Of a stretch of 64,000 nucleotides of DNA, positions 21,001-27,000 are shown piece by piece. The DNA is from Escherichia coli (lineage in GTDB: Bacteria > Pseudomonadota > Gammaproteobacteria > Enterobacterales > Enterobacteriaceae), in the NCBI RefSeq assembly GCF_003991155.1, contig NZ_CP031293.1, one strand, 5' to 3'. The stretch's first letter is position 1; every line of letters starts with the position of its first letter. The position numbers are program-made.

Positions 21001-24000
21001 CGGTGAAGAGGGTTTCACCGGCAATCAGCTGATTCTGGTTATTCAGATACAGCACCCGGAACTCTTCACGCTCCAGTCCCGCCATGTTCAGAATCAGCCA
21101 TTCCCGTGCCGCACGGGTGGAGGTGAAGGCCACACCGGGTTCATGAAGATGGCGGTCCAGGGTTTTCAGAGCCCGCAGAATGAGACTGCGCTCGCCGGGC
21201 GTCATTTCTCCGGGCAGAAAGGAAAGCTGCTGCATTGTCCCTGCCTCCATTCAGTCGATGATGCGCATAATGGCGCTGCATTCCGGATGCTGCAGGGCGT
21301 AATCCCGCAGCCGGTAATAATGGACCGTCATGGCATAACACTCCGTACGACAGGCGTGATGACTGTACGTCATCAGACAGGCAGCAATGCCAGCGGCTTC
21401 CGGGCTCATTTCAGCGCGGTTGCCGTTCATGGCATTGAACAGTACCCATGTTTCGTCATCATCGTCATCCGGTTCGGGGGCCATAAATGCACCGCCGTTG
21501 TTCAGAGTGTACAGATTCCAGATACCACCGCAGTAGTCTTCGCACAGACGGTCCATCCAGCCGAAAACACGGGGCTCCAGGGGCACCCACTGTGGAATGA
21601 GGCCAAAATGCTGCGGCCAGAAGCTGATGCGCTGTTCATCAGGGACTATGGTGGCAACCAACTGAGGCTGGTCATTCCCTGATGCAGCGGTTACGGAAAC
21701 AGAAGATGTGGTGGAATTATGTGAAATGGTTTTCATGAAATGACTCCTTAAAGGACAAATAAATGCGTGGTTTTCAGGGTAATGGCTGAATCAGCGCAGG
21801 CTCTCCAGCAGGGTTTCCGCCATCACCCACAATGCGCGGTTGAGCTTAATGTCAGTGTCAATGCTGTGAATGGCACGGGTATGGATACGTTTTCCTTTAG
21901 CGCTGCGACCTGAAATTCCGCCTTTCAGCATATTCTCCTGAATGGTCTGATAAGCACTCCACAGGTCCTTACCGTAATCCTCCCGGCGTCGTGGCGTCAG
22001 AATGTCGGCGGTGGTGACGGGCTGATGTTCGTCACCATAACGGTAAGTCAGTGCCGCCTGTGCCAGCGCCTGGCGTGCCGGTGGCGGCAGAATCAGCGAC
22101 TGCATGGCATCACGCTTTTCCTCAATCCGGTCAAACACGCCCACCACCTCGTAAGCCCCTTCAATGACTCTGTCCACCACATTTCCCCGGTGCGGAACAC
22201 GCACTTCCCCCAGAGACTGACCACAGACGCAGCCGTTCTGGCAGACGAACCTGAAGTAACCCGGCAGCATCTGGTAGCTGGAGGTACCGTCATGAGAGTT
22301 GAGCAGAATGATTTCAGGGACATGTTCTCCGGTTATCTCTCCGTTACGGCGCAGGCGCAGCATGTGTTTTGTGTATCCCCGACGGCCCGGGTCGCGCACA
22401 CGGGTCTGGCAGGCAAAGAATGGCTGGAAGCCTTCCCGCTGCAGACTTTCCAGTACGGTGATGGTGGGGATGTACGTATAGTTCTGGCTTCGGGACGTGT
22501 GTTTATCTTCCCCGAAAATCCCCGGCACATGGTGCATCAGCTCTTCATGTGTCAGCGGACGGTCACGGCGTATCTGGTTTGCAGCATAACCAAAACGACT
22601 GGCTAATCGCATACTTTGCTCCTTATCGGTGGTTAAGATTTACTGGTGCAATAAATGAAAAAAGCCGCGTCTCCCGGAGAAGACGCGGCCTGATGGATGA
22701 AATCAATGAGGTTTATTGTCTGAGAAGCCCTCCACTGGCGAGCCACGCATTAAGCTGTTTTCCGGCATCAGCTTCAGAGTTCCGACTGCGTCAGCGTCGC
22801 TGACCTTCCGCGTTGCGGATAACCCGACGGAAATGCATTCCCGGGTCATCCTGGATAAACACATTGCGGTAAGCGGTTATGACAGCAACCGCCTGCCCGT
22901 ATGAGAAAGATCCTTCAGCCAGGACATACTCTGTGTGTAACCCGGCATATCTGGTTTCTCCTGATAAATAGCCTCTGCCATACGTTGTGGCAGAGGCTGA
23001 AGCATGAAACTGACTTCAGGGATCAGTTAACATTTTTTCCGGAAACGGTAATCAGCAGTGGATGGTAGTCCTGGGGATCGAAAACCGATAACGGCAGACT
23101 GACACGATGGCCGTTACTTTCTTCAGTTGCTTTAATGATTTCGGTTGTGGCGACATTTTCCACGCACTCCGTTTCCAGAAATGCGTCTGTGGTTCGCGTG
23201 GCATTACTGTCACCAAAGGCTTCCGTTTCCATTTTTCTGGTCACCAGCGTCTGACCATATTTGTCTTTGAGTTGCAGAGTGATGGTGAGGGGGCCAAATC
23301 CTTCATCGTTTCCGCCATTATCCAGCCGGAACTGGTAAGCACAAATATTTCCCGGGAGCCATATCGTATCTGTATTGCGTATACTGATGTAACGTTGATC
23401 CTGTGCCCGGAGTGGGGCAGACCACGTTAACCCCAGAATGAAGGCGGTAATCATGCAGGTTTTGAACAGGTGAATCATGGTATTTACCTCTCTGAGTCAT
23501 GACGATGACACTGACAAATCAGGTGATAAAACGTAAAAGGCGCAGAATAGCCGTTATGCCGGTAACTCCGGGGGTAATGTTTCTTCCAGTCGGTTAACCA
23601 TATTGCCGAGATGGGATGCATCATATTCCATGACGGGGCGTTGCCTGATGATACTGACCACCAGTGGTTTGATTAACATGTTGGTCGCGGCCCGTTGTTG
23701 TATACCGGCAGCGAAAATGATCTCCAGAGCATTCTGATCGATAACACGGGCCAGATTCGCGTTCAGATTTTCAATCTCATGTCCGGTCAGCAGGAAACTG
23801 CCGGCAAGCCATGTCACCTGCTCCTGAATCATTGCCAGAATTTTGACGCGATCTTCTTCAACCAGCGCTCCGGCAATTTTTCCTGATACAGCGGAGGCAA
23901 TCATTCCCCCCAGAACACCGCCAACCACACGCCCTGTCAGTGCACCAAATGGTCCCAGTGGACTGAACAATATCCCGCCCGCCACTGACCCGACAGCACC

Positions 24001-27000
24001 ACCTGCCACACAGGAAGATGCCACGGCAAGATTCCTGATGAACTGCGCACCGGAGATCCGTCCCCGCAACATTTTGATCATGTCAGGGCCGGTTGTGACA
24101 GCTACCAGTGCCAGAGATGTCACCAGCGTACCCTTCATCACTTTGTTCAGGGCACTGATATTTCCTGCACCGGTCCCCTTCTGAAGCGCCTGCCGGACAG
24201 TCGGGCTGGCCGTCGAAAAATCAATATGCTTCAGCATACCCTGAACAACACTGAGCCGGTGAAGTTGCTGGGTTGTGACGTAGACAGCCAGTGTGCGGGT
24301 GAAGGTTTTTCCTGCCTGGACAGCAGCTGTCTGCAGGGCAGCATCGCGATCGCCGGTGCTGAGCCAGAAGACCGATGCCGTCAGGGCAAAACTGATCCCT
24401 CCGGCCGCCAGACTGACAACCGAACCCTCGGCAATATCATAAGTGACCGATTCGATGGTCCCGAACCGGGTGATATTACGGGCCTGAGTATAAGTCAGAT
24501 GTCCCCGACGAATCAGCCGGGACGCTTCTGCGGGATCGGTTACACCGGGTACTTTACCTTCGCGGATCTTATTCCTCATGGTTTCAACAGCGCCGGCATA
24601 CTGATCACGGGGGACTTCCAGTTGCATGGGGCCATTATTTCCCATGTAACGATACTGTCCGTTTTGTCCGTCGAATGCCGCACCGACGCTACGGGCTGCA
24701 GTTGAACAATATTTCGTCTGGATTTCTGTTCCGCTGACCAGTCTGTCTGCTCCATTTCTGGCATTATTATCACCGAGGATCCGTGCGTTTTTCAGACGGA
24801 CTCTGTCGACAAATATGGTTTCCCCGTTCAGCGGCAAACCCATGTCCCTGCCCTCCGGAAGCAAACATTTTCTCATTTGTACTCCAGGTTTCCGGCAGTT
24901 TCATGAGAATCAGACCATTCGCCGTTGCATCGGAAATAAAGCTGTTGTAAGGGCGTTCATAAATTTCCTGACACAGTGTTTCTGTTTCGCGACAAAGAGA
25001 GGAGCAGTACCATTCCGGATCCGGCTTATGATTTTCCGGGGCATGATGTACTTCTGTCAGCCCGCAGGAGGCACAGATACGAAGCTCATCCACGTGATGG
25101 AATGATACAAAACGGCGACCTTCTGAAAAGGGATACCAGTCACCGCCGTCCAGGCAACGATCGAGAAAATCGTCATTCGCTTCCGGTGATAAATTCAGGC
25201 GGTTCCGGAAGAGCGTTTTCAGTTCATCAGGTGTGAATGACAGGTTCTCTTTCAACTGTTCGTTAAACCCTGCCATGTTTCTTTCATACCAGGCATTGTT
25301 CAGTAACCAGTTTCCGTCTGCCAGTTCAAATTCCCTCAGCTCTCCCCGGGAAATCCGTTGTGAAATGAGCGTCAGCCAGATGCGCTCCGTCAGTGAGTCA
25401 GGAAGGCTGTAATCGTTTTGCAAACTGGTCAGCCACGATTTACTGTTGAGCACCGGTTGTTCTTCCAGTGTCTGGCTGATGGCACAGGTCAGTTTTTTCA
25501 GCGCCTGGATCTGGCTGGCCGCCCATAGCAGCGTCACTAATGCAGCCAGCCAGTACAACAACCCGCCCCACCACATCAGTGACGGTGAAATATCGTACTG
25601 TAACGCGATCAATGGTGCGCATGCAGAACACGCCATAAGGAAAAAGGCAGTATAAAAACAGCAGTAATACCCGTTAATTTCCTTGCTGATATCTTCTGGT
25701 GTGATCCCGTACTGCTGAATGTTTTTGATCTGCAGGGGAACAGCCAGCAGACCACCGGCGAGAGCGGTGGTCAGAATAAATTTCACAGAGTCAAAGGTGT
25801 GAGCCTCCAGCGCGATATGTTTACCATCAAGTCCCCACATGAAGCTGATGATCATTCCGGCAATCGTCAGAAATACGCCTGCCAGCCAGCGAATATGGAA
25901 CAACCGGGTTATGCGTTCGGTGATATAGCCAGCCAGTAAGGCCGGGCCGAACAGACACAGCAATATGAGCCCTGCCAGCGCAGAAGCCGTGCTGATTAAT
26001 GCTCTGAACAAAAGGCGAAGAATGGCAAATCCTGCGATCAGCAGGATCAGCGCGCCGACTATCTGTAACATAGTCACTCCGTGATGAATATCATGTTATT
26101 GTTAATGCCAGCGAATGTGGCGTTGAAGATCCGTTGCGCCGGTCCGGGTCCCGGTCATGATGACCGGGACCACAGAGAGGCGATGGTTCTGTCAGAAGGT
26201 CACATTCAGTGTGGCCTGACCGTTATACCCTTCAGCGCTGCTGCCGCTGACGCTGTGGGCATAACCGACCTGAACGCCCAGGGTGATATTTTCCCGGACA
26301 CGGGCTTCCAGTCCGGCCTGCAGGTCCAGTGATGTGCCATTCTGTGAGGGAGAGAACGTCATCCCGCTGCCTGCAGTGGAAGTCCCCACACGCATATCTC
26401 CCCGGGAGCTGAAGGTGCGGATAACAGAAGGCTGTACCCACCAGTTCACCGGTAATTCACTCACACTGTGTTTTGCACTGTCACGCAGGGGGGCACGGGA
26501 TGAGGTGCCTTCGCCAAAGGTCATATCGTTGTGGCTGCCCAGACGGAAACCGGCACGCACATGTTGTGCACTGCCATGCCCGAACTTCACATAACCGGCG
26601 TTGTCCTTACCGTCATCCAGGGAAAGTCCCTGCCAGGTATACTGCAGTTGTGGCTCCAGCATCAGGTTGTCAGTGATACTGAAGGGCAGACCGGTTTCCA
26701 GTGAACCCAGCCAGCCCCAACCCCGGGCGCGGAAGTCGTTATTGTCCGTTGACGCTTTCATGCTGTGGCGGGTTCCCAGGGCCACAATGTCAGCCCACAG
26801 TCCGGAGGCGTTGTGTATCAGATTCAGGTATCCGCCCAGGCTGCCGGCATCATCCCGGACCGTGCCGGCACGGGAGCCGTCATCATCCTTAACATCAACG
26901 GAAGAATGGCCAGCAGCACCATATACCCCCGCGGTCACAGACATACCGGCAACCTCTGTTCTCATCAGGTCACCCTCCAGACGGACGAATCCATAGCTGC

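What the first reader, a model, noticed from the sequence alone, without database searches (positions are those of the whole stretch)
23554..26077. YeeR-like membrane protein gene split by an apparent +1 frameshift
Two long minus-strand ORFs overlap by about 107 nt in different frames. The end of the upstream ORF (…ERGNHI…) and the start of the downstream one (…ETIFVDRVRL…) look as if they could be joined by a single-base indel, which would give one protein of about 870 aa. This may be a pseudogene, a sequencing error, or two genuinely overlapping genes.
Basis: seen in the sequence. Interest (0 to 1): 0.4.

Follow-up and report, generated by a model that had tools for sequence, protein, structure and literature searches.

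The report
Frameshifted yeeR pseudogene in E. coli island
One extra T has broken the 838-codon yeeR gene of the E. coli agn43-yeeR-irmA island into two overlapping reading frames; it is a real mutation inherited by one lineage and already annotated as a pseudogene in public genomes, so the finding is ordinary.

Summary
Two minus-strand ORFs, 24770..26077 and 23554..24876, overlap by 107 nt, and the downstream one is in the +1 frame. The cause is a single extra T in a TTT run (minus strand, window 24811-24813) where other strains have TT. Removing it restores one 838-aa ORF with the junction ...ERGNHI|VDRVRL..., so the product is 838 aa, not about 870 aa.

[quoted passage not shown] Only 20 of 2207 complete E. 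coli genomes that carry this segment have the TTT allele. Those same 20 are the 20 best matches over 24 kb, so they form one clonal haplotype. The exact 433-aa N-terminal product is on record from 536 public contigs, so this is not a sequencing error. NCBI's PGAP already labels the identical sequence "frameshifted".

Homologues from Serratia to Pseudomonas, Cupriavidus and Stenotrophomonas are single ORFs of about 805-850 aa. The break lies between invariant residues N418 and D422, inside the best-conserved domain. There is no programmed-frameshift signal and no conserved split.

Verdict: a recent lineage-specific pseudogene, already known, low interest. Side lead, unproven: the conserved central domain gives weak structural matches to PD-(D/E)xK nucleases.

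The parts
23554..26071 (-). yeeR (full-length type, 838 codons when intact), here a frameshifted pseudogene
   Evidence: PGAP annotates the 100%-identical sequence in other genomes as one CDS flagged pseudo/'frameshifted', named 'YeeR family protein' or 'hypothetical protein'. The in-frame allele in strain A24 is one 838-aa CDS.
24770..26071 (-). Upstream fragment ORF: 433 aa from the ATG at 26071 (435 aa from the GTG at 26077). Residues 1-420 are native YeeR, followed by 13 out-of-frame residues (CRQSPSEKRTDPR).
   Evidence: A GGAG lies 6 nt upstream of the ATG at 26071. The exact 433-aa sequence is on 536 public contigs, some named 'Inner membrane protein YeeR'.
24811..24813 (-). Site of the mutation: TTT run (AAA on the + strand) where the intact allele has TT. 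It falls in codon 421 (intact ATT GTC GAC = I420 V421 D422).
   Evidence: Pairwise alignment to A24. An 81-nt probe across the site matches 100% in 20 genomes. It matches as an 80-nt stretch in every other genome listed of the remaining 2187.
24770..24772 (-). Premature TGA stop of the upstream frame, 13 codons after the insertion
23554..24876 (-). Downstream fragment ORF. It is 440 aa from the ATG at 24876, or 429 aa from the ATG at 24843 as gene callers choose. It encodes native YeeR residues 421-838 after a short out-of-frame leader.
   Evidence: The 429-aa form is on 80 public contigs (for example BDH22702.1) and belongs to the same 90% cluster as the 838-aa protein. SD-like GGAGG lies 8 nt before the ATG at 24843, and GGAG lies 5 nt before the ATG at 24876.
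26192..29314 (-). agn43 (flu), first gene of the agn43-yeeR-irmA unit
   Evidence: PGAP annotation of identical sequence. Operon described in PMC4807369.
23023..23478 (-). irmA (IrmA family protein, 151 aa), intact, 75 nt downstream of yeeR
   Evidence: for the ORF. for the annotation (WP_000581502.1). PMC4807369 and PMC9431211.

Best explanation
This is the full-length form of yeeR, the middle gene of the agn43-yeeR-irmA unit on a horizontally acquired island. It has been inactivated by a one-base insertion (TT to TTT) in codon 421. Translation from the normal start produces residues 1-420 plus 13 aberrant residues and stops at the TGA at 24770-24772. The remaining 418 codons lie in the +1 frame and appear as a second overlapping ORF. 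The mutation is real, arose once, and is inherited by one clonal lineage of E. coli, so the locus is a young pseudogene. The identity of the gene, the exact lesion, its rarity, its confinement to one haplotype, and the single-ORF state in all other homologues are shown. Loss of function is inferred, from the break lying inside the most conserved domain. Possible reduced read-through expression of irmA, through loss of translation over about 1.2 kb of mRNA, is also inferred.
For: The exact lesion was found by alignment to strain A24: one extra T and one SNP in 2524 nt, and removing the T gives an 838-aa ORF. PGAP flags identical sequence as 'frameshifted' in strains Combat2C1, RIVM_C029670 and MS 200-1. 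It calls one intact CDS in A24. The allele census gives 20 of 2207 genomes with TTT, and every other genome listed has the 80-nt in-frame version. The same 20 genomes are the 20 best hits over 24 kb at 99.8-100%, followed by A24 at 99.5%. The exact fragment proteins are on 536 and 80 public contigs. Single ORFs of about 805-850 aa occur in Serratia, Methylomonas, Pseudomonas, Shewanella, Dyella, Cupriavidus, Stenotrophomonas and others, down to 30% identity. Three of these were confirmed as stand-alone single genes in their genomic context. The break lies between invariant N418 and D422 in the QGHGFAAE-x2-N-x3-D motif. That is within a predicted helix at residues 410-424 of a confidently modelled domain. 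The literature reports that yeeR is often disrupted by IS elements and deletions, and that K-12 yeeR is truncated (PMC6480617, PMC4807369, PMC9431211).
Against: No expression data exist for this allele. SD-like sequences precede both in-frame ATGs of the downstream ORF, so a C-terminal fragment could be made. No secondary disabling mutations have accumulated, and the 20 genomes are essentially identical over the gene. Decay therefore cannot be demonstrated, and some residual function of either fragment cannot be excluded. The 510-aa truncated K-12 YeeR also persists, which shows that N-terminal fragments are at least tolerated.
Confidence: 0.92

Rival explanations
1. Sequencing or assembly error: the genome really has TT and one intact 838-codon gene.
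For: Single-base homopolymer-length errors are the commonest assembly artefact. The difference from the intact allele is exactly one base.
Against: The run is only 3 nt long. The identical TTT allele is present in 20 separately deposited complete genomes from several countries and laboratories. It always sits on the same 24-kb haplotype. The exact 433-aa truncated product was called on 536 contigs from NCBI, JGI, ENA and Logan assemblies.
Confidence: 0.02
2. Programmed +1 ribosomal frameshift or transcriptional slippage that still yields full-length YeeR from the split gene.
For: A +1 shift anywhere in a 131-nt window would fuse the frames. The site reads AUU UGU C, superficially like the prfB CUU UGA C.
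Against: The codon after the putative slip is UGU, which is neither a stop nor a rare codon. The GGGG stretch lies 7 nt upstream of the AUU codon rather than the about 3 nt used in prfB, and no run longer than 5 nt exists in the window. From general knowledge, transcriptional slippage needs much longer A/T runs. The frameshift is absent from about 99% of E. coli alleles and from all homologues in other genera, so it is not a conserved recoding signal.
Confidence: 0.01
3. Functional gene fission: the lineage now makes two useful proteins. One is an N-terminal membrane and Cys-cluster fragment, the other a C-terminal fragment started at the ATG at 24843 or 24876. They may reassemble.
For: SD-like GGAGG lies 8 nt upstream of the ATG at 24843, and GGAG lies 5 nt upstream of the ATG at 24876. 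Gene callers predict both ORFs. Both ORFs remain open and unmutated in all 20 genomes. The K-12 510-aa truncation shows that N-terminal fragments are tolerated.
Against: The SD-like strings are by-products of the codons for SGGQGHG and are present unchanged in intact alleles. The cut lies inside a helix of the most conserved domain and separates invariant H410/E415/N418 from D422/D442/Q451/K453. No other taxon shows a conserved split at this position. The lack of further mutations is explained equally well by the youth of the lineage.
Confidence: 0.05

Closest known systems
[quoted passage not shown]
   Same: Same gene in the same position between agn43 and irmA. It is 99.4-99.9% identical in DNA to intact alleles. 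The island gene order is the same: agn43, yeeR, irmA, DUF905, DUF932, antirestriction, JAB/RadC, DUF987, CbeA/CbtA.
   Different: It carries one extra T in codon 421, so it is read as a 433-aa ORF plus an overlapping 429/440-aa ORF instead of one 838-aa protein.
E. coli K-12 YeeR (b2001, 510 aa, 'inner membrane protein YeeR') in cryptic prophage CP4-44
   Same: Residues 1-507 of K-12 YeeR match the intact 838-aa protein at 506 of 507 positions. Both are disrupted versions of the same ancestral gene.
   Different: K-12 lost the C-terminal 331 codons, plus irmA through the 5' end of yeeS, by a deletion (PMC6480617, PMC4807369). Here all of the coding sequence is still present and only the frame is broken. 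The K-12 fragment retains the central conserved domain up to residue 507, whereas this allele cuts that domain at residue 420.
prfB-type programmed +1 frameshift
   Same: A +1 shift is needed, and the site has a U-rich codon boundary (AUU U).
   Different: There is no in-frame stop or hungry codon at the site, no correctly spaced SD stimulator, and no conservation of the frameshift. It neither works like this system nor belongs to it.
PD-(D/E)xK (restriction-endonuclease-fold) nucleases and the PADLOC candidate defence protein PDC-M09B; this concerns the intact protein's central domain only
   Different: Foldseek finds nothing significant. No Pfam PD-(D/E)xK family is hit, and no PDB sequence match was found. 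The second acidic residue of the motif would be Gln. The protein is membrane-embedded on both sides of the domain. No activity is known.

Membership tests
YeeR family (PF27347 YeeR_C; NCBI 'YeeR family protein') | Full-length sequence similarity to YeeR proteins | tested here: met
   The repaired ORF differs from strain A24's 838-aa protein at one residue (one SNP, T/S) and is 99% identical to cluster representative P0001. K-12 YeeR matches residues 1-507 of the intact 838-aa protein at 506/507 positions. 414 homologues were found at E<=1e-3.
YeeR family (PF27347 YeeR_C; NCBI 'YeeR family protein') | Match to the Pfam model PF27347 | tested here: inconclusive
   The local Pfam copy appears not to hold PF27347, since scans of both fragments and of the 838-aa protein return only a sub-threshold C19orf12 hit. 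The precomputed annotation assigns PF27347 to P0001, the 90% cluster representative that contains the window's downstream fragment, and to nearly all homologues.
YeeR family (PF27347 YeeR_C; NCBI 'YeeR family protein') | Position between agn43 and irmA in the CP4-44-like island module | tested here: met
   PMC4807369.
YeeR family (PF27347 YeeR_C; NCBI 'YeeR family protein') | One uninterrupted ORF of about 805-850 codons (an intact, functional member) | tested here: not met
   The frame is broken at codon 421 by an extra T, so this is a pseudogene of the family and not an intact member.
Programmed +1 ribosomal frameshift (prfB/RF2 type) | Slippery codon followed by an in-frame stop or slowly decoded codon | tested here: not met
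   The site reads AUU UGU CGA, and the zero-frame stop lies 13 codons further on.
Programmed +1 ribosomal frameshift (prfB/RF2 type) | SD-like stimulator about 3 nt upstream of the shift codon | tested here: not met
   The nearest G-rich stretch (GGGG at 24825) is separated from the AUU codon by 7 nt.
Programmed +1 ribosomal frameshift (prfB/RF2 type) | Frameshift conserved among orthologues | tested here: not met
   It is present in 20 of 2207 E. coli genomes and in none of the 28 aligned homologues from other taxa.
Phase-variable contingency locus (simple-sequence-repeat slippage) | Long homopolymer or short tandem repeat at the indel site, with both lengths recurring across lineages | tested here: not met
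   The run is TT versus TTT only. The TTT state is confined to one 24-kb haplotype.
PD-(D/E)xK nuclease superfamily (central domain of intact YeeR, residues about 405-545) | Restriction-endonuclease-like alpha-beta-beta-beta-alpha-beta core fold | tested here: inconclusive
   [not shown]
PD-(D/E)xK nuclease superfamily (central domain of intact YeeR, residues about 405-545) | Catalytic signature E ... (P)D ... (D/E)xK | tested here: inconclusive
   Invariant E415, D442 and Q451-x-K453 sit at the expected secondary-structure positions. However, the motif would be D...QxK, and residue equivalence with known nucleases was not checked by superposition.
PD-(D/E)xK nuclease superfamily (central domain of intact YeeR, residues about 405-545) | Metal-dependent nuclease activity | not testable with these tools
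   This needs biochemistry.

The most novel reading that the evidence does not exclude
The broken gene encodes a member of an uncharacterised, widely distributed proteobacterial family of about 830 aa. Its invariant central domain would be a membrane-tethered PD-(D/E)xK-type (nuclease-like) module related to the PADLOC candidate defence protein PDC-M09B. Full-length YeeR would then be a mobile-island defence or exclusion effector, and this lineage has lost it through a frameshift that bisects the catalytic core between E415 and D442/QxK453. The frameshift itself would still be an ordinary inactivating mutation.
Probability: 0.25. Interest if true: 0.45.

Novelty: already known. Interest (0 to 1): 0.07.

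Why it matters
The finding matters little in itself. It is a routine lineage-specific pseudogene that NCBI's pipeline already flags. It has three practical uses. First, annotation pipelines that do not detect frameshifts report two spurious genes here, one of them named "Inner membrane protein YeeR". Second, the TTT allele is a clean single-event marker for one clonal E. coli lineage. Third, yeeR lies between agn43 and irmA in one transcription unit in some strains (PMC4807369), so the premature stop might lower read-through expression of the immune-modulating IrmA protein. That effect is untested, and irmA has its own promoter in strain 042 (PMC9431211). The side observation that the textbook K-12 YeeR is a truncated remnant, and that the intact family has a nuclease-like conserved core, may help anyone trying to assign a function to YeeR.

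Tried and rejected
- Pfam and NCBIfam scans of the two fragments and of the repaired protein gave nothing above threshold, only a sub-threshold C19orf12-like hit on the Gly-zipper region.
- PHROGs gave only weak hits on the Gly-rich segment, including a tape-measure hit. I rejected these as compositional.
- PDB sequence searches with the protein and with the central-domain profile gave nothing significant.
- Foldseek of the whole model against the PDB gave no hit at E<=0.001. The only local hits were winged-helix-like ones with high probability but poor E-values.
- A Pfam scan of 24 central-domain sequences at E<=10 showed no recurring nuclease family.
- A literature search for 'PDC-M09' found no papers. 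A search for YeeR plus nuclease found nothing relevant.
- A search by strain names did not reveal the sequence type of the 20 genomes, so the lineage is left unnamed.
- A tRNA scan of the window found none, so the island's integration site is not within the window.
- The promoter/terminator scan across the gene gave only weak consensus matches, which I did not interpret.
- Programmed frameshifting, phase variation and sequencing error were each considered and rejected, for the reasons given under the rival explanations and the membership test.
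Full report
**Observation**

One search lists two long minus-strand ORFs, 24770..26077 (435 aa, GTG start) and 23554..24876 (440 aa, ATG start). They overlap by 107 nt (24770-24876). One search shows that the downstream frame is +1 relative to the upstream frame. The downstream frame is open from 24900, so a +1 shift anywhere within 131 nt (24900 to 24770) would fuse the two. The upstream frame ends at a TGA at 24770-24772.

**The lesion**

A megablast of the 2524-nt region against 5426 complete E. coli genomes found it in 2582 of them. Twenty hits were 100% identical over 2524 nt. The next hits, at 99.4-99.9%, spanned 2523 nt.

A base-by-base alignment with the closest 2523-nt allele, strain A24, shows only two differences:
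- An extra T in the window, in ...CCATATTTGTCGAC... versus ...CCATATTGTCGAC..., at window 24811-24813 on the minus strand.
- One SNP at 24129.

Without the extra T the region is one ORF of 838 codons. It starts at the ATG at 26071, which has a GGAG 6 nt upstream. The junction reads ...GHGFAAERGNHI-VDRVRLKNARILGDNNARNGADRLV....

The window allele therefore encodes native residues 1-420 plus 13 aberrant residues, 433 aa in total. The remaining 418 native codons are in the +1 frame.

**Real mutation or error**

An 81-nt probe centred on the site matched 2207 genomes. Exactly 20 matched at 100%, carrying the TTT allele. Every other genome listed was an 80-nt (TT) match, both among the best-ranked rows and in an even sample down the ranking.

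The same 20 genomes are the 20 best matches to a 24-kb stretch of the window, at 99.8-100%. The intact-allele strain A24 follows at 99.5% and all others listed are at or below 99.3%. The insertion therefore sits on one haplotype and most simply arose once.

An exact-sequence look-up found the 433-aa truncated product on 536 public contigs and a 429-aa downstream product on 80 contigs, from NCBI, JGI, ENA and Logan assemblies. A sequencing artefact in a 3-nt run would not recur like this.

It annotates the A24 allele as one intact CDS. Other pipelines call two genes.

**What the gene is**

The neighbours, in transcription order on the minus strand, are:
- agn43
- this gene
- irmA
- DUF905
- DUF932
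- an antirestriction protein
- a JAB/RadC protein
- DUF987
- a YeeU/CbeA-family antitoxin and CbtA-family toxin pair

Group-2-type capsule (kps) genes follow. This is the agn43-yeeR-irmA unit described by Moriel et al. 2016 (PMC4807369). In strains EC958 and CFT073 the three genes are co-transcribed under OxyR control. In strain 042 irmA also has its own promoter in the yeeR-irmA spacer (PMC9431211). In those papers YeeR is described as uncharacterised.

K-12 YeeR (b2001, 510 aa) matches residues 1-507 of the 838-aa protein at 506 of 507 positions. It then ends three codons into a deletion junction that abuts yeeS. This agrees with published statements that K-12 yeeR is truncated (PMC6480617, PMC4807369).

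**One gene or two**

A homology search with the repaired protein returned 414 relatives. Most listed relatives at or below about 70% identity are single proteins of about 805-855 aa. They come from Serratia, Methylomonas, Pseudomonas, Shewanella, Stutzerimonas, Herbaspirillum, Dyella, Cupriavidus, Pandoraea, Deefgea, Stenotrophomonas and others. In the 28-sequence alignment, identities run down to 30%.

Three of them were inspected in their genomes and are stand-alone single genes in unrelated neighbourhoods. These neighbourhoods include a RES-Xre toxin-antitoxin pair, HicAB, a TIR protein and IS66.

In the 28-sequence alignment the frameshift falls between invariant N418 and D422. This is within the motif Q-G-H-G-F-A-A-E-x2-N-x3-D, and further invariant residues follow at G433, N436, G440-A441-D442-R443, Q451, K453 and Y454. 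The split therefore cuts the best-conserved part of the protein, and no other taxon shares it.

**Recoding**

The site reads AUU UGU CGA. There is no stop or rare codon at the shift position. The nearest G-rich stretch is 7 nt upstream of the AUU codon, and the longest homopolymer in the shift window is 5 nt. Combined with the absence of the frameshift from about 99% of E. coli alleles and from all other genera, programmed frameshifting, transcriptional slippage and phase variation are not supported.

**Possible residual products**

The ATG at 24843 is preceded by GGAGG at 8 nt, and the ATG at 24876 by GGAG at 5 nt. A C-terminal fragment could therefore be initiated internally. However, these strings simply encode ...SGGQGHG... 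and are present in intact alleles too. Neither fragment would contain the whole conserved domain.

All 20 genomes are essentially identical over the gene. There has been no time for further decay, so selection on the fragments cannot be assessed.

**Architecture of the intact protein (side result)**

An AlphaFold2 model built from the 28-sequence alignment has mean pLDDT 75.8. Together with the alignment it suggests the following layout:
- Long N-terminal hydrophobic helices, residues 1-204.
- Two small helix/beta-hairpin modules.
- An invariant Cys cluster: C333, C336, C356, C360 and C367.
- The conserved central domain, about residues 405-545, with pLDDT 80-91.
- Long helices with an invariant Gly-zipper: G690, G694, G698, G713, G717 and G721.
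- A helical tail.

- Upx
- N.BspD6I
- Hjc
- NucS
- FokI
- VRR-NUC
- HamA

Invariant E415 lies in the first helix, D442 at the start of a strand, and Q451-x-K453 in the next strand. That arrangement is the one expected for this superfamily.

PADLOC's candidate-defence model PDC-M09B matches 13 of 24 family members, best E 5.6e-7.

**Conclusion**

The finding is a correctly observed, correctly interpreted and unremarkable frameshift pseudogene. It is the full-length yeeR gene, already flagged as frameshifted in public annotation, and it marks one clonal E. coli lineage.

Noticed in passing
L004 3780-5312 (E. coli K-12 MG1655 yeeR, NC_000913.3 2074779-2076311): The reference K-12 YeeR (510 aa) is itself a remnant. 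Residues 1-507 match the 838-aa protein at 506/507 positions. A deletion then joins it to yeeS and removes the C-terminal 331 codons plus the genes that lie between yeeR and yeeS in this island (irmA, DUF905, DUF932 and the antirestriction gene). This is also stated in PMC6480617 and PMC4807369.
   Followed up: yes
[not shown]
   Followed up: partly
window 24843-24856 and 24876-24885 (-): SD-like GGAGG lies 8 nt before the ATG at 24843, and GGAG lies 5 nt before the ATG at 24876, inside the upstream ORF. Gene callers use the ATG at 24843 to call a 429-aa 'gene' (BDH22702.1 and 79 other contigs). Non-PGAP annotations therefore list two spurious proteins here.
   Followed up: partly
window 49003-60654 (+), plus a small ORF at about 60668-60988 (+): This is a contact-dependent inhibition locus. 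It has a ShlB/FhaC-family transporter (CdiB, 590 aa), a 3288-aa CdiA annotated 'contact-dependent inhibition effector tRNA nuclease', and a small hypothetical ORF in the position of the immunity gene (annotation of the identical ECONIH2 sequence).
   Followed up: no
window 35241-35390 (+): A short Hha/YmoA-family gene (49 codons) lies about 6 kb beyond the agn43 end of the agn43-yeeR-irmA cluster. This fits the published association of extra hha copies with the yeeR-irmA cluster (PMC6480617).
   Followed up: no
L005 14349-16656 (strain MS 200-1), corresponding to the window gap between about 29390 and 29686: One of the 20 frameshift-allele genomes (MS 200-1) carries an IS21-family element (istA/istB) between the GTPase-family gene and agn43. 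The window lacks it. It is a later event within the same lineage.
   Followed up: no
window 62053-62177 (-): In the identical ECONIH2 sequence PGAP flags ythA as another 'frameshifted' small pseudogene. An acetolactate synthase small-subunit remnant is flagged as a pseudogene at about window 38563-38789.
   Followed up: no
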